Shown: positions 1 to 8,239 of the stretch, piece after piece
Position numbering within the stretch: position 1 is the stretch's first letter
Layout: every line of letters starts with the position of its first letter
Source: a virus
Taxonomy: Duplodnaviria > Heunggongvirae > Uroviricota > Caudoviricetes
IMG/VR virus record: IMGVR_UViG_3300014921_000099
Span: 1 to 8,239 of that record
Length of the DNA: 8,239 nt
Strand: one strand, 5' to 3'
Translations under genes and position numbers: made by a program
The notes under the pieces: generated by a model
The model's database searches: none
Told to the model about the DNA's origin: nothing
What the model saw: the letters and a program-made list of their open reading frames with translations, nothing else

Positions 1-144
1 GTCTCGGAAGTCACGTTTACTCAGGACCAGAACGGCACCCTGACGGAAATCCGTGTCGGCCCGCCTGATGCTTATCTGCCTGAACCCGAAGCCCCCGGCG
101 CGCGGAAAAAGAAAAAAGCCAGAGTACAGGAGGACCCGTTCTGA
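1..144 (+). CDS. 3' end of an upstream phage tail/baseplate gene (partial; start lies outside the window)
   Basis: Frame 1 is open from base 1 to a TGA at 142-144 that overlaps the ATG at 144 of the next gene (TGATG coupling). Composition is GC-rich like the downstream tail genes. Product cannot be assigned from 47 residues. Confidence 0.45.
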   Translation, partial: VSEVTFTQDQNGTLTEIRVGPPDAYLPEPEAPGARKKKKARVQEDPF

Positions 145-692
145 TGAGGACGATTGAAGCCATGCAGCGACAACTTCTCGGCCTGATTGGGCGGGCCGTG
201 GTGAAAAGCATCAGTGCCGCCACGAAATGTCAGACCGTGGATGTGTCCCTGATTGCCGGTGAACCCAAAGCCGGGGTTGAACATCTTGAACCCTACGGTT
301 TTACCGCAAGGGCAAACAGCGGTGCGGAAGCGGTGGTGTTGTTTCCGGATGGCGACCGTTCTCATGCGGTGGTTGTTACGGTGTCGGACCGGCGCTACCG
401 CCTGAAAGGGCTGCAGACGGGTGAGGTGGCTGTCTATGACGATCAGGGGCAGTCTGTGACGCTGACCCGGGAGGGGATCGTGGTGGACGGTGCAGGGAAA
501 ACGATCACGTTTCGCAATGCAACTGAAGCACGTTTTGAAATGGATCTGGAAGTGACCGGACAAGTGAAAGACCTGTGCGACTCCGGCGGCACCACCATGT
601 CAGCGATGCGGCTTGCCTATAACGGGCATCGTCACAGAGAGAACGGTCAGGGCAGTAACACCGACAAACCTGATAAAGCGATGGAGGCATGA
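144..692 (+). CDS. Baseplate central spike protein (P2 gpV / Mu gp45-like)
   Basis: 182-aa ORF with AGGAGG at 128-133 upstream of ATG 144. Translation has the look of the gpV/gp45 spike family, including an HxH motif ('NGHRHRENG') near the C-terminus, typical of the metal-binding spike apex. Followed by the expected baseplate gene order. Assignment by family recognition, not by search. Confidence 0.8.
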   Translation: MRTIEAMQRQLLGLIGRAVVKSISAATKCQTVDVSLIAGEPKAGVEHLEPYGFTARANSGAEAVVLFPDGDRSHAVVVTVSDRRYRLKGLQTGEVAVYDDQGQSVTLTREGIVVDGAGKTITFRNATEARFEMDLEVTGQVKDLCDSGGTTMSAMRLAYNGHRHRENGQGSNTDKPDKAMEA

Positions 693-1117
693 TGGAACTG
701 TGGCTGACGGTGAACGGTAAACGCACCTGCGCCAGCGCACCGCTGGATCCGCTGACCCGCGCCGTGGTGATTTCCCTGTTCACCTGGCGGCGGGCGGAGC
801 CTGATGACAATGCCGACGTCCCGATGGGATGGTGGGGGGATACCTGGCCTGCGGTACAGAATGACCGTTACGGCTCCCGACTGTGGCTGCTTCAGCGCAG
901 CAAACTGACCAATCAGCTGGTGCAGACGGTAAGGGGATATATCCGCGAATGCCTGCAATGGATGACTGATGACGGCGTGGTGTCCCGTATTGATCTGGAT
1001 ATCCGCCGCACCGGGATTAATGAGCTGGGTAACAGTATCACCCTCTGGCGTCGTGATGGACCAGTAATGATTTCTTTTGATGATCTGTGGAGTGCGATAA
1101 CGCATGGCGGACAGTGA
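689..1117 (+). CDS. Phage GP46-family baseplate protein (Mu gp46-like)
   Basis: 142-aa ORF whose start overlaps the stop of the spike gene (ATGA/TGATG at 689-694). Size and position between spike and baseplate J match Mu-like baseplate modules. Confidence 0.75.
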   Translation: MMELWLTVNGKRTCASAPLDPLTRAVVISLFTWRRAEPDDNADVPMGWWGDTWPAVQNDRYGSRLWLLQRSKLTNQLVQTVRGYIRECLQWMTDDGVVSRIDLDIRRTGINELGNSITLWRRDGPVMISFDDLWSAITHGGQ

Positions 1118-2162
1118 ATTTCAGCGCCCGACGCTGGCAGAAAATATCAGTATGCTCCGTAACGATTTATTCGCCAGGCTGGACGTCAGCGACACGCTCC
1201 GGCGCATGGATGAAGACGTGCGGGCAAAGGTGTATGCGGCGGCGCTGCATACGGTCTACGGTTACATCGATTATCTGGCAATGAATATGCTGCCTGACCT
1301 GTGCGATGAGTCCTGGTTGGCGCGACATGCTGCGATGAAACGGTGTCCGCGCAAGGGAGCCACGGTTGCCAGCGGGTATATGCGCTGGGAAGGTGTCAGC
1401 GATGGCCTGAAGGTGACTGCCGGGAGTGTTATTCAGCGCGATGACCTGGTGCAGTACACGACAACTGACGATGCAATCAGCTCCGGTGGTGTCCTGCGCG
1501 TGCCGATCGCCTGCTCAAGTGCAGGTGCGGTCGGTAACGCTGACGACGGTACGGCATTAATCCTGGTCACGCCGGTGAATGGTCTGCCGTCTTCCGGTGT
1601 GGCTGACACCCTGACAGGCGGATTTGATACTGAAGAGCTGGATACGTGGCGCGCCCGCGTCATTGAGCCGTATTACTGGACGCCGCAGGGCGGGGCTGAC
1701 GGGGACTATGTCGTCTGGGCTAAAGAAGTGCCTGGCATTACCCGCGCATGGACATACCGACACTGGATGGGAACGGGGACTGTCGGTGTGATGATTGCCA
1801 GCAGTGACCTGATTAATCCCATTCCGGAAGAATCAACGGAAACGGCGGCAAGACAACATATCGGGCCACTGGCCCCGGTGGCAGGCTCTGATTTGTATGT
1901 GTTCAGGCCGGTGGCACATACGGTGGATTTTCATATCCGTGTGACGCCGGACACACCGGAAATACGGGCTGCCATCACCGCGGAGTTGCGTTCGTTCCTG
2001 CTGCGTGATGGTTATCCGCAGGGAGAACTGAAGGTGTCACGTATCAGTGAAGCGATTTCCGGTGCGAACGGGGAATACAGCCATCAGTTGCTTGCACCGG
2101 CGGACAATATCACCATTGCAAAAAATGAACTGGCGGTTCTGGGGGCGATTTCATGGACGTGA
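1104..2162 (+). CDS. Baseplate J-like protein (Mu gp47 / P2 gpJ family)
   Basis: 352-aa ORF overlapping the previous gene by 14 nt and the next by 10 nt. Size and position are typical of the baseplate J wedge protein. GC-rich codon usage consistent with neighbours. Confidence 0.8.
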
Positions 2163-2737
2163 CAAACGATGATTACATCCGTCTGTTGTCAGCACTGTTG
2201 CCGCCCGGTCCGGCGTGGTCAGCCAGCGATCCGGCGATTGCCGGTGCGGCACCGTCATTAACCCGCGTTCATCAGCGTGCGGATGCCCTGATGCGGGAGC
2301 TGGATCCGCGCACCACCACCGAACTGATAAATCGCTGGGAGCGTCTGTGCGGCCTGCCGGATGAATGTATTCCTACAGGGACACAGACCCTTCGCCAGCG
2401 TCAGCAACGGCTGGATGCGAAGGTGAACCTGGCGGGGGGCCTCAACGAGAATTTTTATCTTGCACAGCTTGCTGCCCTGGGCAGACCGGATGCCAACATC
2501 ACGCGATACGACAAAAGCACGTTCACCTGCTCATCGGCCTGTACTGACGCGGTGAATGCGCCTGAATGGCGGTATTACTGGCGGGTCAACATGCCAGCCG
2601 CCACCAACACCACCTGGATGACATGTGGCGATCCCTGTGATTCCGCGCTGCGCTTCTGGGGGGACACCGTTGTCGAGTGTGTTCTTAACAAACTCTGCCC
2701 GTCGCATACCTATGTGATTTTTAAATATCCGGAGTAA
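2153..2737 (+). CDS. Tail protein, P2 gpI / Mu gp48 / YmfQ-like (DUF2313 family)
   Basis: 194-aa ORF immediately after baseplate J and immediately before the tail fibre gene, the conserved location of the gpI-like protein. N-terminal '[16 protein letters not shown]' region is characteristic of this family as I recall it. Confidence 0.75.
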
Positions 2738-2740
2738 TCC

Positions 2741-3388
2741 ATGCATCGTATAGACACGAAAACCGCGCAGAAGGATAAGTTCGGCGCGGGTAAGAACGGT
2801 TTTACCCGTGGTAACCCCCAGACCGGCACGCCTGCCACCGATCTGGATGATGACTACTTTGACATGTTGCAGGAGGAGCTTTGCAGCGTTGTGGAGGCAT
2901 CCGGTGCCAGCCTGGAGAAGGGGCGGCATGACCAGCTGCTTACCGCGCTTCGTGCGCTGCTGTTAAGCCGCAAGAATCCGTTTGGCGATATCAAATCGGA
3001 TGGCACGGTGAAAACAGCTCTCGAAAACCTTGGTTTGGGAGAAGCGGCAAAGAGGAATGTGGGGACAGGAGAAAATCAGGTTCCGGATATGAACAGCTTT
3101 GGTAACTCATTGACCGCCAATGGATACCAGAAATTACCTGGGGGGATGATTATTCAATGGGGGAGTTTTTCTGTCTCACCAACCGGAGGAAGTGTTGGAA
3201 CAGTTGATATAACATTACCTGTAGCTTTCCCTGCTGCTTGTCGTTCGGTAAACGCTCTTATTTCAACTAATGATCCTTCTGCCCGTTCTGTGGGCTTTGA
3301 TATTGGAAGTACCAACAGAACCAAAATCAGATTTACTTACACTTCTGCTACAACAAATTCAATTTACTGGATGGCTGTGGGGTATTAA
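2741..3388 (+). CDS. Tail fibre protein: constant N-terminal part (codons 1-~93) fused to the variable C-terminal part currently in the expressed orientation
   Basis: 215-aa ORF. N-terminus '[21 protein letters not shown]...' resembles the conserved N-terminal region of enterobacterial e14/Mu-type side tail fibres. The reading frame runs through the crossover site at 3019-3042 ('LENLGLGE'). GC drops sharply downstream of the site, as expected for a swapped variable domain. Confidence 0.85.
3019..3042. repeat. Invertase crossover site (gix/pix/hix-like), left copy, inside the tail fibre ORF
   Basis: TCTCGAAAACC-TT-GGTTTGGGAGA has imperfect dyad symmetry and closely resembles hix/gix sites (hixL recalled as TTCTTGAAAACCAAGGTTTTTGATAA). 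Its reverse complement shares the core TTGGTTTGGGAGAAG exactly with the site at 4877-4900. Confidence 0.7.
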
Positions 3389-3390
3389 CT

Positions 3391-3822
3391 ATGGAAAAGA
3401 CATATTATTTTAATCCCTCTGATTCGGGATTTTATATTTCACCAGATAGCCAAACCATTCCTGAGAACGCTACGAAAATAAACTTTACTATTTATTCTGA
3501 GTTCGCAGGAGTTGCATGGCCTGATGGTAAAATACTTGGTTCAGATAAAAATGGTTTTCCAGCATGGCAGGATGCGCCACCACTTACCAGCGAAGAATTA
3601 ATCTCAATCGCTGAATCAAATAAACAGCGATTAGTTAATCAGGCCAACGAATACATGAACAGTAAACAATGGCCTGGTAAAGCGGCGATTGGTCGTCTGA
3701 AAGGTGAGGAACTGGCGCAATATAATTTGTGGCTGGATTATCTGGACGCACTGGAACTGGTCGATACTTCCAGTGCGCCAGATATTGAATGGCCTACTCC
3801 TCCGGCAGTTCAGGCCAGATGA
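3391..3822 (+). CDS. Tail fibre assembly chaperone (Tfa / Mu U-like), expressed orientation
   Basis: 143-aa ORF starting 2 nt after the fibre stop. C-terminus '...LDYLDALELVDTSSAPDIEWPTPP' is the conserved Tfa C-terminal motif. Confidence 0.85.
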   Translation: MEKTYYFNPSDSGFYISPDSQTIPENATKINFTIYSEFAGVAWPDGKILGSDKNGFPAWQDAPPLTSEELISIAESNKQRLVNQANEYMNSKQWPGKAAIGRLKGEELAQYNLWLDYLDALELVDTSSAPDIEWPTPPAVQAR

Positions 3823-4396
3823 CATCCGGCGCGGTACTGGTATCTGTTGCCGTCACCGCGTCAATGTAATCCAGCACAGTGTTAAGTCGGGTGGTCTCTG
3901 CCTGCATCAGCTTCCGCCCGGCCTGCAATTTCAGTTGAATCAGACTAATGGAAGCCATTGCAGTATCAATCAGTGACTGACGTTGTGCTTCTGCCGCGTC
4001 TACTGCGGCGCTATGCTGTGTCTCAGTATCCGTTACCCATTTCTCACCATCCCATTTATCGTATGGCGTTAACGGGGCGATAGTGGTTGTTTTTTCGGGG
4101 TAATCACCCGGAGTTGTGATTTCTTTGGCGTCTCCCGTTTCGGTGTTATAGACGATTTCACCGCGATGGTCTGGTACATATTCCCATGAGTTAAAATCTG
4201 CAGAGCGGCAGATTGCATAACCAGCTTTGTAGGTGCCTGGAGCATCTAAACAGGAATATGCCGGAATGCCGACACCAACAGCAAGATATTCAGTTGAAGC
4301 TGAAATATACTCCCGACTCATGACGTCAAAGTTATAAACAGTAATTTCTCCTGCCATAGTGGCAATTAATTCACTGTTTAATTCTGCGTTATTCAT
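3794..4396 (-). CDS. Alternate tail fibre assembly chaperone (Tfa' / Mu U'-like), silent orientation
   Basis: 200-aa ORF on the - strand. C-terminus '...LDYIDAVTATDTSTAPDVIWPELPEE' is the same conserved Tfa motif. Start ATG overlaps the stop of the alternate fibre cassette (TAATG at 4394-4398). Its 3' end overlaps the + strand tfa convergently by 29 nt. Confidence 0.8.
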   Translation of the reverse strand: MNNAELNSELIATMAGEITVYNFDVMSREYISASTEYLAVGVGIPAYSCLDAPGTYKAGYAICRSADFNSWEYVPDHRGEIVYNTETGDAKEITTPGDYPEKTTTIAPLTPYDKWDGEKWVTDTETQHSAAVDAAEAQRQSLIDTAMASISLIQLKLQAGRKLMQAETTRLNTVLDYIDAVTATDTSTAPDVIWPELPEE

Positions 4397-4900
4397 TATG
4401 CAGCCCTCACAATATAGTTAAAAGCGACATTTCGTGGGCGTGTTTCATTCGCACCTGCAGGTTTAGTCGTTGCCGCAACAACACCACCCTCTGTAATAGC
4501 CGGGTTGGGAATTGGGTAATTATCGAAGTCAATGGCTGGAGACAGGGGCGTGATTTGTTTTAAAATCGTGGTGCCTGTAAAACTTTCCAGAGTCTGGTCG
4601 TTAGTTCGTGAAGTCCAGATTCCCCAATAGTGGTTATGACTGACAATCGCACCGTCCTGAAGCGTTAATAATCCCCTTCCGTTATCCACTCCACGCCCGT
4701 CATCCCAGCCACGAATAAACTCACCACGTAAATCAGGCAATTTATTTGTCGGATAAGCCTTTGCCAGTTCCGGGTATTCTTCAGCAGAAAAAGCGGCACC
4801 GTTGCATTTCAGCCAGCCTGTTGGCGGAGTGGCGGAAGGCCACGGAACAGGCACACCAACGGGGAATGCAGAACCTTCTCCCAAACCAACGTTTAAGAAA
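4396..4900 (-). CDS. Alternate tail fibre C-terminal (receptor-binding) cassette, promoterless and lacking its own N-terminus; becomes fused to the constant fibre N-terminus after inversion
   Basis: Minus-strand frame is open from the crossover site to the stop at 4396-4398. The frame through the site reads 'FLNVGLGE', matching 'LENLGLGE' at the left site, so inversion gives an in-frame fusion. Contains a typical fibre tip motif 'PVPWP...GWLKCNG...YPEL'. The ORF-track ATG at 4929 is probably not a real start. Confidence 0.75.
4877..4900. repeat. Invertase crossover site, right copy (inverted relative to 3019-3042), just upstream of the invertase remnant
   Basis: TCTCCCAAACCAACGTTTAAGAAA. The first 15 nt are identical to the reverse complement of the left site. 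Position immediately 5' of the invertase start is the canonical arrangement. Confidence 0.7.
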
Positions 4901-4955
4901 ATGCAGAGGTAACAGCTAACTGGCATCATTCCTGCTTTTGTCAGGGGGAGCTACC

Positions 4956-5162
4956 ATGCTTATTGGCTATGTAAGCGTATCAAAAAATGACCAGAACACA
5001 GATCTACAACGTAATACGTTGAACTGTGCAGGATGCGAGTTGATTTTTGAAGATAAGTGGTACAAAGTCCGACAGGCCGGGCTGAAAAAACTGCTCAGGA
5101 CACTATTGGCAGTAGACACTCTGGTTGTCTGGAAGCCGGGTAGCTCAGGAGCAGAACAATAG
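4956..5162 (+). pseudogene. Serine DNA invertase (Pin/Gin/Hin/Cin family), 5'-terminal remnant only; truncated and degenerate
   Basis: Translation from ATG 4956 (GGGGGAG RBS at 4944-4950) gives 'MLIGYVSVSKNDQNTDLQRN..CAGCE.IFEDK', the unmistakable N-terminus of Gin/Pin/Hin invertases. The conserved Arg of the 'GY.RVS' active-site motif is Ser here. Similarity decays after 'DTLVVWK' and the frame stops at 5162 after ~69 codons, where full-length invertases are ~185-190 aa. Downstream DNA is unrelated AT-rich sequence. The ORF-track start at 4938 is a TTG; I prefer ATG 4956. Confidence 0.8.
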
Positions 5163-5345
5163 TAAGCTACTGTGATATGCTGAAGTCTGAGTGTTTTTGC
5201 ACAATATAAGAGTATCCGTGAATTGCACATCGCTATTGATGAGTATATCCATATTACATTAATGAACGTCTGATATACTATAATTTTAGCTATGTCTTTT
5301 ATGATAGAATTAGGAAACAATAAAACATCATTGATGATGTACCTT

Positions 5346-5352
5346 TAAGGAG
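5346..5352 (+). promoter_or_regulatory. Ribosome-binding site of the 377-aa cargo gene
   Basis: TAAGGAG, 5 nt upstream of ATG 5358. Confidence 0.6.
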
Positions 5353-5357
5353 TTTAT

Positions 5358-6491
5358 ATGCTGGAAACAGCTCAAAAGAATGCAGGAAGACCTTATCCTG
5401 ATGCTCTTGTAAATCGCTTCGTTTTAGATATATCTAAGCTAAAGGATGGTGATGTTATCGTAGAGCATGGTTATAGTACTTACAGCCCAACAATTGAAAA
5501 AGTAACTAAGTGTTATTATACGCATGCAATGATTTACCTTGAGGGAACTATTATTGAGGCTACAAGTGACGGTGGCGTGTTTTCTAGAGTTCCCAATAGA
5601 ATAGCTGTTCCATTAGAAAAAGATTTGGTTGTATTAAGATTAAAGAATTCATTAGATCCGTATATTATGAATCTAATAACATCAAGGGCTAGGGAGTTGA
5701 TTGGTTCAAGCTATAGTATAACTGAAGCAGCATCAACACAAATATATAAAAACACTCCTGCTAAAAAAGCAAATATAAAAATCAAACCTAAGAGAAGTCA
5801 ATTCTGTTCTAGACTTGTTGCTCAATGCTATTCTTATGGTGGAGTTAATATAGTCGATAATATAGATTACTGTACGCCGAAGGATATCTTTAACTCTATA
5901 TACTTGCAACCAGTTCATAACGCAATTAAAGAAGGTTCGTCAGAAGAAATCTATCATGCCAATATAGGGGAGTTACATCCTAAACACCTAAAATCTTGTG
6001 TCGCCTGGGTTAAAACTGCAAAAAAAATTCTTGCCAAGCATGATGTTAAAGTTCAAACAATTAATGAAATCATACATGCCGTGGTAAAATTAAATAATAC
6101 CAAAGTCGATAAGGCAGTCTTTAAAGCCATCAATGATAGTGGTTACTTACAAGATTATGTTGATGATCGCATTCAAAATGAATATAGATATAACATAGTA
6201 ATGTTTCTTGATTTTTATAAAAAACAACAAATCTCTATCGAGATGGAAATTGAAAAAGAATTTGGCATTTATAAAACCAGGAAAAGTAATTTTCAAACTT
6301 ATAAGGATATGTATGAAGAACACCCAGCCAGAATAATAAAATGCCATCTTGATCTTGAAAAAAAACTATTAAAAAGCATTCATGAAAGATTAACCATTAT
6401 CCTTACCGTATGTCAGATGTTAGCATTAACCCCGAAAAATATAGCCAAAGCAAAAGAAATATTTATAGATATAAAATTCTTACTTGAATAA
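5358..6491 (+). CDS. Hypothetical two-domain protein: N-terminal permuted NlpC/P60-like (YiiX/DUF830-type) Cys/His hydrolase domain, C-terminal Lys/Glu-rich helical domain of unknown function
   Basis: 377-aa ORF with strong RBS and a rho-independent terminator 10 nt after the stop. About 30% GC against ~60% in the tail genes. N-terminal ~180 aa contain 'DGDVIVEHGY', 'THAMIY', 'IIEATSDGGV' and 'FCSRLV', which I read as the His-before-Cys arrangement of permuted papain-fold enzymes (candidate catalytic H56 and C150). Residues ~190-377 are K/E-rich with no motif I recognise. Domain call is from motif recognition only. Confidence 0.8.
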   Translation: MLETAQKNAGRPYPDALVNRFVLDISKLKDGDVIVEHGYSTYSPTIEKVTKCYYTHAMIYLEGTIIEATSDGGVFSRVPNRIAVPLEKDLVVLRLKNSLDPYIMNLITSRARELIGSSYSITEAASTQIYKNTPAKKANIKIKPKRSQFCSRLVAQCYSYGGVNIVDNIDYCTPKDIFNSIYLQPVHNAIKEGSSEEIYHANIGELHPKHLKSCVAWVKTAKKILAKHDVKVQTINEIIHAVVKLNNTKVDKAVFKAINDSGYLQDYVDDRIQNEYRYNIVMFLDFYKKQQISIEMEIEKEFGIYKTRKSNFQTYKDMYEEHPARIIKCHLDLEKKLLKSIHERLTIILTVCQMLALTPKNIAKAKEIFIDIKFLLE

Positions 6492-6500
6492 TAGATGGTT

Positions 6501-6528
6501 AAAGGCTCGATATTGAGCCTTTTTATTA
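6501..6528 (+). terminator. Rho-independent terminator of the 377-aa gene
   Basis: AAAGGCTC-gatatt-GAGCCTTT perfect 8-bp stem with 6-nt loop, followed by a T-rich run (TTTATT), 10 nt after the TAA stop. Confidence 0.7.
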
Positions 6529-6539
6529 ACAGCGTTTAC

Positions 6540-7020
6540 ATAAGAGATATTACGGAGTGTTTTTGTAAGGAGGGGTTAATAATCACCTTCATTTTTATAT
6601 GGCTCGAACTATGTAGTTGAATGAAATATTACGAGGTCTGACTGTTGCATGGTTAACACCATCGCTAACATATGGATCGGGATAAGGGAATCTGGAAAAT
6701 CCAAAACTGTAATCGACTATACCATCATGATTACTGCATGACCGGAGCCTACGTCAAAGTGCCCAGCATACTGTGTGAAAGATGTTGCTGCTTGAAAACT
6801 AAGTAATGTCATACGATTATCGATTCCTCTTCCATCATCCTAGCCACGAATAAATTCACCACGTGACTCGGGTAATATGCCAGCCGGATAAACCGCGTCT
6901 AATTTTGGATAGATATTTTTATCGAAGGGGCACCGTTATATTTCAGCCAGTCTTCTGGTGGGTTGGGGAGGGGCAACGGCACTGGCAACGCGGAGCCTTC
7001 CTCCAAACCAAAAAATAAAA
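6540..7020 (-). pseudogene. Decayed second copy of the alternate tail fibre C-terminal cassette, with remnant of the tfa' start and of the crossover site
   Basis: Hand alignment shows roughly 65-70% identity between 6590-7012 and 4396-4900, in the same orientation. It includes a crossover-site remnant (CCTTCCTCCAAACCAA at ~6996-7012) and a 'ttcat' junction remnant at 6588-6592. The frame is broken: TGG to TAG in the 'GEFIRGW' region plus indels, and no ORF of 60 aa or more is called here. Upstream of the junction only ~18 codons of a tfa'-like start remain. Confidence 0.6.
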
Positions 7021-7202
7021 ACTAGAAAGCCTGAGTCTGGTGCAATACCGAATTCAGGCTATGGTAACCGCTTACTATCATGTTTGATTTTAAGGAGGCT
7101 GCTTAGAGAAGCGATTTTAACGTTCTTAAGATGAATAACACATAGCTGACGCAAATGTTGTTTGCATTATGCAACATTTATTTATGGGGTATTTCAACCG
7201 AT

Positions 7203-7580
7203 TTAAGCTTTTACTCGGCCTTTAACTCCCGCCATTAGACTATGCTTTCCTTCTAAATCTACGTCAGATGTCCATATTGTGTAATTGCGGCTCTTGCGGC
7301 TAGAGGCAACAATCTTACTCTTAATTTCTCTTGGGGACATGTTCTTTGCTTGAGCTACAAGCACATAGTCTTTGGATGCTTTCTCTACCGCTTTCAATAA
7401 ATTTTCTGTGAGGATTTGTCCGTTGTTACGGCATCTACGAGTATTAAATCGTACAGCAAAATTCAGCGCATCCAGATAATCAGTGCGGATAGTTTCTTCT
7501 TTGAGCATCTGTTGCACGAATTTGCGGGCAGTTTTCGATTTCCCCAATTGTTTCACTACTGCTTGCTTACCGGGCTTCAT
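7203..7580 (-). CDS. Hypothetical small basic protein (125 aa, about a quarter Lys/Arg); possible nucleic-acid-binding protein
   Basis: ORF with a consensus AGGAGG RBS 5 nt upstream of the ATG. Lies 68 nt downstream of, and co-directional with, the 196-aa gene. About 40% GC. No family recognised from the sequence. Confidence 0.65.
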   Translation of the reverse strand: MKPGKQAVVKQLGKSKTARKFVQQMLKEETIRTDYLDALNFAVRFNTRRCRNNGQILTENLLKAVEKASKDYVLVAQAKNMSPREIKSKIVASSRKSRNYTIWTSDVDLEGKHSLMAGVKGRVKA

Positions 7581-7585
7581 ATGTT

Positions 7586-7591
7586 CCTCCT
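7586..7591 (-). promoter_or_regulatory. Ribosome-binding site of the 125-aa gene
   Basis: Minus-strand AGGAGG (plus-strand CCTCCT at 7586-7591) followed by 5 nt and the ATG at 7578-7580. Confidence 0.6.
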
Positions 7592-7648
7592 AACATTCTA
7601 CTAATAAATATTTTATCATAATAGTTCATAAAACACTCAACACAAATA

Positions 7649-8239
7649 TCAGATCAGTTTTGTCAAGAGCTTAGCGCGGGGCAAATTATTTCGCTTCACT
7701 CGAGCTTTGTCTGCAGCATTCAGTGAATAACCAAAAGATTCATATCTTTCAATGAGCTGCTTGTCAGGCCGACTAATATTGACCTGTCTGATACCATATG
7801 CATCAGCGAAACTCTCTGCAATGATTAGCGCAATTGGCATGACGAAACCTTTCAATGGATGATCATATGGATTTCCTTCGAGATATCTAAGTGTTATGCA
7901 GAGCCGTTTTTTAGAACGTCGACCAAGCATCAACCCGCAAAGAAAATCGCGGCATCGAATACTCACATCAATGCGTTTGGTCTGATTACGCCTTTCTTGG
8001 TTCCAGTTGATGTCAATGTAATGCCGTTTTTCTGGAAGACGCCACTCCCTGCTAGCCTCATCTGAGTCTTCATAATAGATGTGACCCAATTTGATTTCAT
8101 TAACCGGCAATCGGTTACCAAACCTTGTAGCAATAGAAAGCATAGCATCTGCGATTGCCTCAGAATAGATTAACTCATGGGTTAGCTCTTCAGTGGGACG
8201 AACTATGCTTGCTTGTACTGACTCCATATCCACTACCAT
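7649..8239 (-). CDS. Hypothetical protein (196 aa or more); N-terminus may extend beyond the window edge
   Basis: Long minus-strand ORF ending at a TGA at 7649-7651. The window ends exactly at the reverse complement of an ATG, so the true start is uncertain. About 40-42% GC. No family recognised with confidence. Confidence 0.6.
   Translation of the reverse strand: MVVDMESVQASIVRPTEELTHELIYSEAIADAMLSIATRFGNRLPVNEIKLGHIYYEDSDEASREWRLPEKRHYIDINWNQERRNQTKRIDVSIRCRDFLCGLMLGRRSKKRLCITLRYLEGNPYDHPLKGFVMPIALIIAESFADAYGIRQVNISRPDKQLIERYESFGYSLNAADKARVKRNNLPRAKLLTKLI

What the first reader, a model, noticed from the sequence alone, without database searches (positions are those of the whole stretch)
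3019..4900. Intact-looking invertible tail-fibre switch with identifiable crossover sites and in-frame alternative C-termini
Two ~24-bp sites in inverted orientation share a 15-nt identical core and show the dyad symmetry of hix/gix/pix sites. The + strand frame through the left site encodes 'LENLGLGE' and the - strand frame through the right site encodes 'FLNVGLGE', so inversion would fuse the constant fibre N-terminus in-frame to the alternate receptor-binding C-terminus (4396-4900) and place the alternate chaperone (3794-4396) downstream. This is a known mechanism of host-range switching, but here it is reconstructed from sequence alone and it frames everything downstream.
Basis: partly seen in the sequence, partly recalled or inferred. 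Interest (0 to 1): 0.45.

Follow-up and report, generated by a model that had tools for sequence, protein, structure and literature searches.

The report
Orphaned e14-type invertible tail-fibre segment
This is a well-known kind of phage DNA switch, the e14 "P segment", that swaps the tip of a tail fibre by flipping 1.86 kb of DNA. This copy has lost its own flipping enzyme, and related E. coli strains carry it in both orientations, which implies that an enzyme encoded elsewhere in the genome flips it.

Summary
Two 26-bp sites (3018-3043 and 4876-4901) lie in inverted orientation and share 15 identical bases. They match the published e14 sites pixL (26/26) and pixR (25/26). A simulated flip of 3032-4887 fuses the constant fibre N-terminus in frame to the collar-type C-terminus, giving 260 aa, and places the 200-aa chaperone directly after it. 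That exact arrangement exists in real genomes.

"Intact-looking" is only half right. The adjacent invertase gene (4956-5162) is a 68-codon stump. It carries R7S, two deletions, and has lost everything after about codon 60. The prophage is a defective e14/SfV-like remnant next to ssrA, not at icd.

Even so, assemblies with this identical stump hold the segment in both orientations, with breakpoints inside the 15-nt core. Both orientations occur in each of two marker-defined sub-lineages. I infer that inversion continued after the invertase died, driven in trans. All six complete genomes carrying the island have a second match attributable to a pinQ-like gene, and published work shows PinQ/PinR/PinE invert the e14 P segment in trans.

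It is a new member of a known kind. Interest is modest.

The parts
2741..3388 (+). Tail-fibre gene in the current orientation (215 aa). The constant N-terminal part is 2741-3031 (aa 1-~97, ending ...ALENL). The variable Gp53-like C-terminal cassette is 3032-3388.
   Evidence: ORF. Pfam Gp53-like_C at aa 131-215, E=3e-18. PHROG tail-fibre N-terminal families match aa 1-102. The constant part is 96% identical in DNA to K-12 stfP, and the variable part has diverged.
3018..3043 (.). Left crossover site, CTCTCGAAAACC|TT|GGTTTGGGAGAA. Its reverse complement equals the published pixL.
   Evidence: (PMC3241671 Table 3, 26/26). Natural recombinant junctions break inside 3030-3044.
3391..3822 (+). Tail-fibre assembly chaperone for the current cassette (TfaP-like, 143 aa).
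   Evidence: Pfam Caudo_TAP, E=4.7e-30.
3794..4396 (-). Alternative chaperone (TfaE-like, 200 aa). After inversion it lies directly downstream of the fibre gene.
   Evidence: Pfam Caudo_TAP, E=4.8e-30. 85.5% aa identity to K-12 TfaE. Flip simulation.
4396..4929 (-). Alternative collar-type fibre C-terminal cassette (inside the segment, 4396-4887), read here as a 177-aa ORF whose first 14 codons (4888-4929) lie outside the segment. This is the stfE equivalent.
   Evidence: Pfam Collar, E=8.9e-16. PHROG matches to the C-terminal parts of tail collar fibre proteins.
4876..4901 (.). Right crossover site, TTCTCCCAAACC|AA|CGTTTAAGAAAA (pixR type, 25/26).
4956..5162 (+). Pin invertase pseudogene stump (68 codons). 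It has R7S and T10K, a 5-bp and a 1-bp deletion, and homology to pinE ends at about 5134. The DRLGR catalytic motif, the rest of the catalytic domain and the HTH domain are absent.
   Evidence: Alignment to pinE. Pfam Resolvase matches aa 3-60 only.
4974..5045 (.). Stretch homologous to the Fis-dependent recombinational enhancer, which is CDS nt 19-90 in cin of P1. It has no indels, 7 substitutions against pinE, and 4 of those fall at positions invariant in pinE, gin and cin.
   Evidence: P1 record annotation. Alignment A2.
6600..7022 (-). Degraded second collar-type cassette ending in a relic half-site at 6996-7021 (TTCCTCCAAACC|AA|AAAATAAAAACT). Probably not a working site.
   Evidence: tblastn matches in three frames, with a stop. 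Repeats D1-D3 and I19. The site does not match the 26-bp consensus at 2 mismatches or fewer.

Best explanation
The region is a Din-family (Hin/Gin/Cin/Pin) invertible segment of the e14 P type, 1856 bp long, inside the tail-fibre operon of a defective e14/SfV-like prophage next to ssrA.

A serine invertase dimer binds each 26-bp site. The two sites and a Fis-bound enhancer form an invertasome. All four strands are cut at the central TT/AA dinucleotide, one pair of subunits rotates 180 degrees, and the strands are rejoined. This swaps the fibre's C-terminal receptor-binding domain (Gp53-like versus collar type) together with its chaperone, while the first ~97-100 codons stay fixed.

What is shown: the sites, the in-frame cassettes, the dead cis invertase, and the natural occurrence of both orientations next to the identical dead invertase.

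What is inferred: flipping is now done in trans by an unlinked invertase of the host, most plausibly PinQ/PinR-type or PinE/Gin/Cin-type from another prophage or plasmid. I also infer that the mutated enhancer remnant still works well enough. In this defective prophage the switch no longer changes a virion's host range. Any present-day role, such as the phage-adsorption blocking published for K-12 StfE2, is speculative.
For: - Sites match published pixL 26/26 and pixR 25/26, with matching non-palindromic core dinucleotides in inverted configuration.
- The architecture is the same as the Mu G segment and K-12 e14 P: Gp48/YmfQ, Sc-Sv, U/Tfa, U'/Tfa', Sv', invertase.
- The flip simulation gives a 260-aa fibre followed by the 200-aa Tfa, and a 132-aa stfE-N-terminus::Gp53-like chimera. 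Exactly these gene sizes are annotated in E. coli Sx181-0-1 with an intact pinE and in loci L022 and L024.
- The predicted flipped fusion gene is contiguous at about 98% identity in 47 complete E. coli genomes. The native fusion is contiguous in 10.
- The same 68-aa Pin stump, with a 2.7-kb right flank that is about 100% identical, is joined to the segment in native orientation (window, L021, L023, L025, L026) and in flipped orientation (L022, L024, L003, L013, L016, L027-L030).
- Junctions switch partner within the 15-nt core.
- A left-flank marker (CA versus GG), an in-segment marker (T versus G) and the upstream architecture (TerL-206aa versus DNA_circ_N) group L021-native with L022-flipped, and L023-native with L024-flipped. 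This requires at least two inversions after the single truncation event.
- Trans inversion of the e14 P segment by PinQ, PinR and PinE is experimentally documented (PMC12529663).
- All 6 complete genomes with this island show a second match once pinQ is added to the query.
Against: - Nothing is known about the rest of the window's own genome, so an invertase may be absent there.
- The enhancer-equivalent has 4 changes at positions invariant in pinE, gin and cin. Wild-type invertases are inactive without a Fis/enhancer (PMC3798978).
- Only 1 of 6 complete genomes with the island has a pinE-like 3' gene part.
- In all six of those complete genomes IS3 deletions have already destroyed the switch, so the pinQ co-occurrence is only a proxy. 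pinQ-like DNA is in 52% of all genomes anyway.
- The A8/A7 marker is a homopolymer and is not fully concordant. Flipped IS3-truncated loci have both ORF sizes.
- Orientation differences between assemblies could in principle come from recombination with a resident e14.
Confidence: 0.8

Rival explanations
1. Frozen relic. The sites and cassettes look intact only because the element is young. Since the invertase was truncated the segment no longer flips in this host, so the window simply records the last orientation.
For: - The invertase is a dead stump.
- The enhancer-equivalent carries substitutions at otherwise invariant positions.
- The orphan lineage is very young, with 2 variable columns in 2.7 kb, so intact ORFs need no selection.
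- Five of six complete genomes with the island lack a pinE-like gene.
Against: Both orientations occur beside the identical stump, and they occur in each of two marker-defined sub-lineages. Trans inversion of pix sites by unlinked invertases has been demonstrated (PMC12529663).
Confidence: 0.12
2. The orientation polymorphism arose by RecA-dependent recombination or gene conversion with a second e14-like prophage carrying the segment in the other orientation, or by recombination between the short inverted repeats, rather than by site-specific inversion.
For: - e14-like DNA is present in more than half of E. coli genomes, often in several places.
- Over 994 bp the flipped L003 segment is as close to an ordinary e14 allele (L017, 3 differences) as to the window (3 differences), so that comparison cannot tell the two apart.
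Against: - The in-segment marker travels with the flank markers in both sub-lineages, which argues against import.
- The repeat identity is only 15-20 bp, which from established knowledge is too short for efficient RecA recombination.
- The junctions are exactly the canonical pix crossover sites.
Confidence: 0.06

Closest known systems
P segment of cryptic prophage e14 of E. coli K-12 (stfP-tfaP / tfaE-stfE, pixL/pixR, pinE)
   Same: - Gene order and both crossover sites (26/26 and 25/26).
- Constant fibre N-terminus, 96% identical in DNA.
- TfaE, 85.5% aa identity.
- A 14-codon stfE N-terminus outside the segment.
- Invertase gene immediately to the right.
   Different: - The segment is 1856 bp here against 1797 bp (PMC12529663).
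- Fibre tips and TfaP are different alleles. StfP, StfE and TfaP are only 61%, 58% and 47% identical overall.
- The invertase is truncated.
- The element lies beside ssrA, followed by an AT-rich island, instead of at icd followed by mcrA.
G segment of phage Mu (Gin, gix) and C segment of P1 (Cin, cix)
   Same: - Same recombinase family and 26-bp site layout, with a 2-bp core.
- Sc/Sv-U/U'-Sv' logic.
- Enhancer in the first ~90 nt of the invertase gene.
   Different: - The segments are larger (about 3 kb and 4.2 kb) and the fibres are longer.
- The core dinucleotide of gix is GA.
- Both belong to viable phages with a working cis invertase.
Escherichia phage SKA5 (OR670062) and the Shigella phages SfIV/SfI/SfII/SfV
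   Same: The Mu-like baseplate and fibre module is 96-97% identical in DNA. SKA5 has the whole switch, with two fibre cassettes, two Tfa genes and a full-length 564-bp invertase gene.
   Different: These are complete phage genome records. For SfI, SfII and SfV the DNA match ends at about 3092, near the left crossover site, and whether they carry an inverted cassette pair was not inspected.
PinQ/PinR-driven trans inversion of e14 P producing StfE2 (Kirigo et al. 2025, PMC12529663)
   Same: A P-type segment is flipped by an invertase encoded in a different prophage. After flipping, a short stfE-N-terminus::StfP-C-terminus chimera is formed (132 aa here).
   Different: In K-12 the cis invertase PinE is also present, whereas here trans action would be obligatory. 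The variable cassettes differ, so the published anti-T2 effect cannot be transferred. No expression or phenotype data exist for this element.

Membership tests
Din-family (Hin/Gin/Cin/Pin) invertible DNA segment | Two 26-bp recombination sites in inverted orientation that fit the family consensus TTCNNNNAAACN-NA-NGTTTNNNNGAA | tested here: met
   Both sites match with 1 mismatch. They are the only matches in the window, and 0.01 are expected. They match pixL 26/26 and pixR 25/26. The consensus spacing was corrected by me from the listed sites, because the 24-nt string as extracted gave no match.
Din-family (Hin/Gin/Cin/Pin) invertible DNA segment | Identical, non-palindromic 2-bp crossover core in the two sites, in inverted configuration | tested here: met
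   The core is TT at 3030-3031 and AA at 4888-4889 on the + strand.
Din-family (Hin/Gin/Cin/Pin) invertible DNA segment | Adjacent gene for a full-length serine invertase (catalytic domain plus C-terminal HTH) | tested here: not met
   Only 68 codons remain. The stump has R7S and two deletions, and homology ends at about codon 60 of 184. Pfam Resolvase covers aa 3-60 only. The segment therefore qualifies as a substrate of the family, not as an autonomous system.
Din-family (Hin/Gin/Cin/Pin) invertible DNA segment | Fis-binding recombinational enhancer in cis | tested here: inconclusive
   The homologous 72 bp (4974-5045) are retained without indels. They carry 7 substitutions against pinE, 4 of them at positions invariant in pinE, gin and cin. 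Fis binding cannot be tested with these tools.
Din-family (Hin/Gin/Cin/Pin) invertible DNA segment | Both orientations occur | tested here: met
   Flipped copies exist beside the identical Pin stump (L022, L024, L003, L013, L016) and beside an intact pinE (L017). The census found 47 flipped-type and 10 native-type fusion genes. Heterogeneity within the window's own culture could not be tested.
Phage tail-fibre host-range switch (Sc + Sv/U versus Sv'/U') | A constant N-terminus joined in frame to either of two C-terminal cassettes, each followed by its own assembly chaperone | tested here: met
   The 215-aa and 260-aa products, with the 143-aa and 200-aa Caudo_TAP chaperones.
Phage tail-fibre host-range switch (Sc + Sv/U versus Sv'/U') | Belongs to a phage able to make virions | tested here: not met
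   In full-length relatives of the window type, TerL is joined almost directly to the baseplate genes and no head, sheath or tube genes are present. No integrase lies at the ssrA end.
Cryptic prophage e14 itself | Integrated in icd, with pinE-mcrA at the right end | tested here: not met
   The element lies next to ssrA/smpB, and the Pin stump is followed by an AT-rich island. Compare true e14.

The most novel reading that the evidence does not exclude
The orphan segment is not just a decaying phage part. It is a host-retained, phase-variable module whose two states are set by unlinked prophage invertases. It would then be a second natural instance, with different fibre tips, of the recombinase-activated surface-masking and anti-phage mechanism reported for K-12 StfE2, in which trans control has become obligatory because the cis invertase is gone.
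Probability: 0.2. Interest if true: 0.5.

Novelty: new member of a known kind. Interest (0 to 1): 0.3.

Why it matters
The kind of switch is textbook, so the switch alone teaches nothing new.

The modest added value is a natural experiment. A P-type segment whose own invertase was destroyed by a single event is still found in both orientations in at least two sub-lineages. This is comparative evidence from genomes that Pin-family invertases of one prophage operate switches in another. It complements the 2025 experimental report on PinQ.

It also warns annotators that orientation, and so the annotated fibre protein (215 aa versus 260 aa), is not a stable strain property even where no invertase gene is nearby.

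Tried and rejected
- **Metagenome scan, right site plus truncation junction:** no match.
- **Truncation junction alone:** no match in GTDB representative genomes. One metagenome contig matched, but it starts inside the stump and so carries no orientation information.
- **SNP comparison of the flipped L003 segment with the window and with ordinary e14 alleles:** too few differences to tell inversion from import. The question was answered instead with flank and in-segment markers in L021-L024.
- **First consensus scan:** it used the 24-nt string as extracted from the paper and found nothing. The listed sites show 12-nt half-sites, and the corrected 26-nt pattern works.
- **Sigma-70 promoter scan of 4700-5400, looking for a promoter of the stfE-like ORF:** none found.
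- **PADLOC on the fibre cassettes and the three island ORFs:** no hits.
- **Third repeat at 6997-7011 as a working third site (a Min-like multiple inversion system):** rejected. Its outer half-site is gone, its cassette is degraded, and no relative shows a rearrangement using it.
- **Johnson's review on invertases:** could not be fetched. The Fis-site positions within the enhancer therefore rest only on the P1 record annotation and on homology.
- **Technical limit:** several fetched loci were not available to scripts, so comparisons were made with DNA alignment.

Full report
**What is there**

Window 1-5134 is the tail end of an e14-like prophage. It is 98% identical to the e14 region of E. 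coli FHI_NMBU_10. The genes, in order, are:
- Mu-type baseplate genes (Gp45, Gp46, J/Gp47, Gp48/YmfQ);
- a 215-aa fibre gene (2741-3388);
- a 143-aa chaperone (3391-3822);
- on the other strand, a 200-aa chaperone (3794-4396) and a 177-aa collar-type fibre ORF (4396-4929);
- the start of a pin invertase gene at 4956.

This is the layout of the Mu G segment and of the K-12 e14 P segment.

**Checking the observation**

The repeat finder reports 3025-3044 / 4875-4894 (19/20) as the longest inverted repeat in the region. The exact 15-mer occurs once on each strand, with a 2-mismatch third copy at 6997-7011. Shuffles give 0.01 matches on average, and none of 200 shuffles reached 3.

Written as 26-bp sites, they are:
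- 3018-3043, CTCTCGAAAACC|TT|GGTTTGGGAGAA;
- 4876-4901, TTCTCCCAAACC|AA|CGTTTAAGAAAA.

Table 3 of PMC3241671 lists pixL as TTCTCCCAAACC AA GGTTTTCGAGAG and pixR as TTCTCCCAAACC AA CGTTTATGAAAA. The left site is the exact reverse complement of pixL, and the right site differs from pixR at one base. K-12 itself has these same sites. With the family consensus, these are the only two matches in the window.

The central dinucleotides are TT and AA on the + strand, which is the same core in inverted configuration. The subunit-rotation mechanism needs this for religation (mechanism from PMC3798978).

**In-frame switching**

Flipping 3032-4887 in silico has three effects:
- The 215-aa fibre (constant part plus Gp53-like_C) becomes a 260-aa fibre (constant part plus collar domain).
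- The 200-aa chaperone starts at that fibre's stop codon.
- The 177-aa ORF becomes a 132-aa chimera.

These exact gene sizes and order are annotated in E. coli Sx181-0-1 next to an intact pinE. The predicted flipped fusion gene is contiguous in 47 complete genomes, and the native one in 10.

The invertase gene is a stump. Compared with pinE, it has:
- R7S next to the catalytic Ser9, and T10K;
- a 5-bp and a 1-bp deletion;
- no homology beyond about 5134, so the DRLGR motif, the rest of the catalytic domain and the DNA-binding domain are gone. Pfam sees only the first 60 residues.

Beyond the stump lies AT-rich DNA with three poorly characterised ORFs and a second, degraded collar-type cassette. 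Then comes ssrA.

The element is therefore not e14 proper, which sits at icd and ends in pinE-mcrA. In full-length relatives of the window type, TerL is joined almost directly to the baseplate genes, so no virion can be made.

**Does it still flip?**

The 68-aa stump protein was used to find other copies. The stump and 2.7 kb to its right are essentially identical in all copies examined, with two variable columns. The truncation therefore happened once. Yet the segment occurs in both orientations:
- as in the window, in L021, L023, L025 and L026;
- flipped, with both sites and all flanks intact, in L022 and L024;
- flipped and then cut by an IS3-associated deletion, in L003, L013 and L027-L030.

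Junction alignments show the partner switch falling inside the 15-nt core, as site-specific exchange predicts.

Three markers pair L021 (native) with L022 (flipped), and L023 (native) with L024 (flipped):
- a CA/GG difference just left of the site;
- a T/G difference inside the segment;
- the upstream architecture (TerL-206aa versus DNA_circ_N).

Orientation is therefore discordant with lineage. At least two inversions followed the death of the invertase. The alternative is recombination between lineages, which the co-travelling in-segment marker argues against. The A8/A7 homopolymer marker is less reliable.

**Source of the enzyme**

This part is inference. PMC12529663 shows experimentally that PinQ, PinR and PinE all invert the e14 P segment, and that PinQ does so from another prophage.

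I used a composite query to bring the six complete genomes that carry the island to the top of the hit list. With pinQ in the query, all six show a second match. With the pinE 3' part in the query, only one of six does. In those six genomes IS3 has already destroyed the switch, and pinQ-like DNA is in 52% of all genomes, so this is plausibility and not proof.

**Enhancer**

Wild-type invertases need a Fis-bound enhancer in cis. The P1 record places it at nt 19-90 of cin. The equivalent stretch here, 4974-5045, has no indels; the 5-bp deletion starts at nt 95. It has 7 substitutions against pinE, 4 of them at positions invariant in pinE, gin and cin. Native and flipped copies share exactly this sequence, so the inversions happened with this enhancer version. 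I take that as indirect evidence that it still suffices.

**Comparison and novelty**

The closest known system is the e14 P segment. The differences are the fibre tips and TfaP (47-61% identity), the segment length, the location and the dead invertase. A complete phage genome record, SKA5, carries the same module with a full-length invertase gene. For the Shigella phages SfI, SfII and SfV the DNA match ends at about window 3092, and for E. coli phage vB_EcoM-689R6 it ends at 3044. The crossover site is therefore also a mosaic boundary.

The finding is a new member of a well-known kind. Its one mildly interesting feature is obligatory trans control.

Noticed in passing
window 6600-7022 (- strand), site relic 6996-7021: This is a second, decayed collar-type fibre C-terminal cassette. 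It matches the 4396-4929 product in three different frames and contains a stop. It ends in a half crossover site that keeps the inner half and the AA core but has lost the outer half. It looks like the fossil of an earlier or duplicated fibre/invertase junction.
   Followed up: partly
window 5135-8239: An AT-rich island lies between the Pin stump and ssrA. Its 377-aa ORF (5358-6491) has only weak similarity: Pfam Peptidase_C92, E=1e-4 and below the curated cutoff, and phrog_1128. Two further ORFs of unknown function (7203-7580 and 7649-8239) lie on the - strand. None hits a PADLOC defence model. The island is 100% conserved in only six complete E. coli genomes.
   Followed up: partly
window ~6358 (A8 run inside ORF 5358-6491); loci L023-L025, L029: A one-base length change in an A8 homopolymer turns the 377-aa ORF into a 337-aa form in some assemblies. 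It could be a real slippage polymorphism or a sequencing error.
   Followed up: no
L002, L004-L006 (break at window 5013); L003, L013, L027-L029 (break inside tfaE): In relatives, an IS3 copy sits to the left and is associated with nested deletions of different depth into the element. One class removes everything up to the middle of the Pin stump. The other stops inside the tfaE-like gene of a flipped segment, which locks that orientation.
   Followed up: partly
window 3044-3092: For the Shigella phages SfI, SfII and SfV the DNA match ends at about 3092, and for E. coli phage vB_EcoM-689R6 it ends at 3044. This is at or just past the left crossover site, so the site coincides with a boundary of fibre-tip mosaicism between phages.
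   Followed up: no
window 4956-5134: Over its first ~140 nt the Pin stump differs from pinE by about 9 substitutions plus 2 indels, roughly 6%. The rest of the e14-like DNA differs from the same genome by about 1.7%. This suggests either long-relaxed constraint or descent from a different pin allele.
   Followed up: partly
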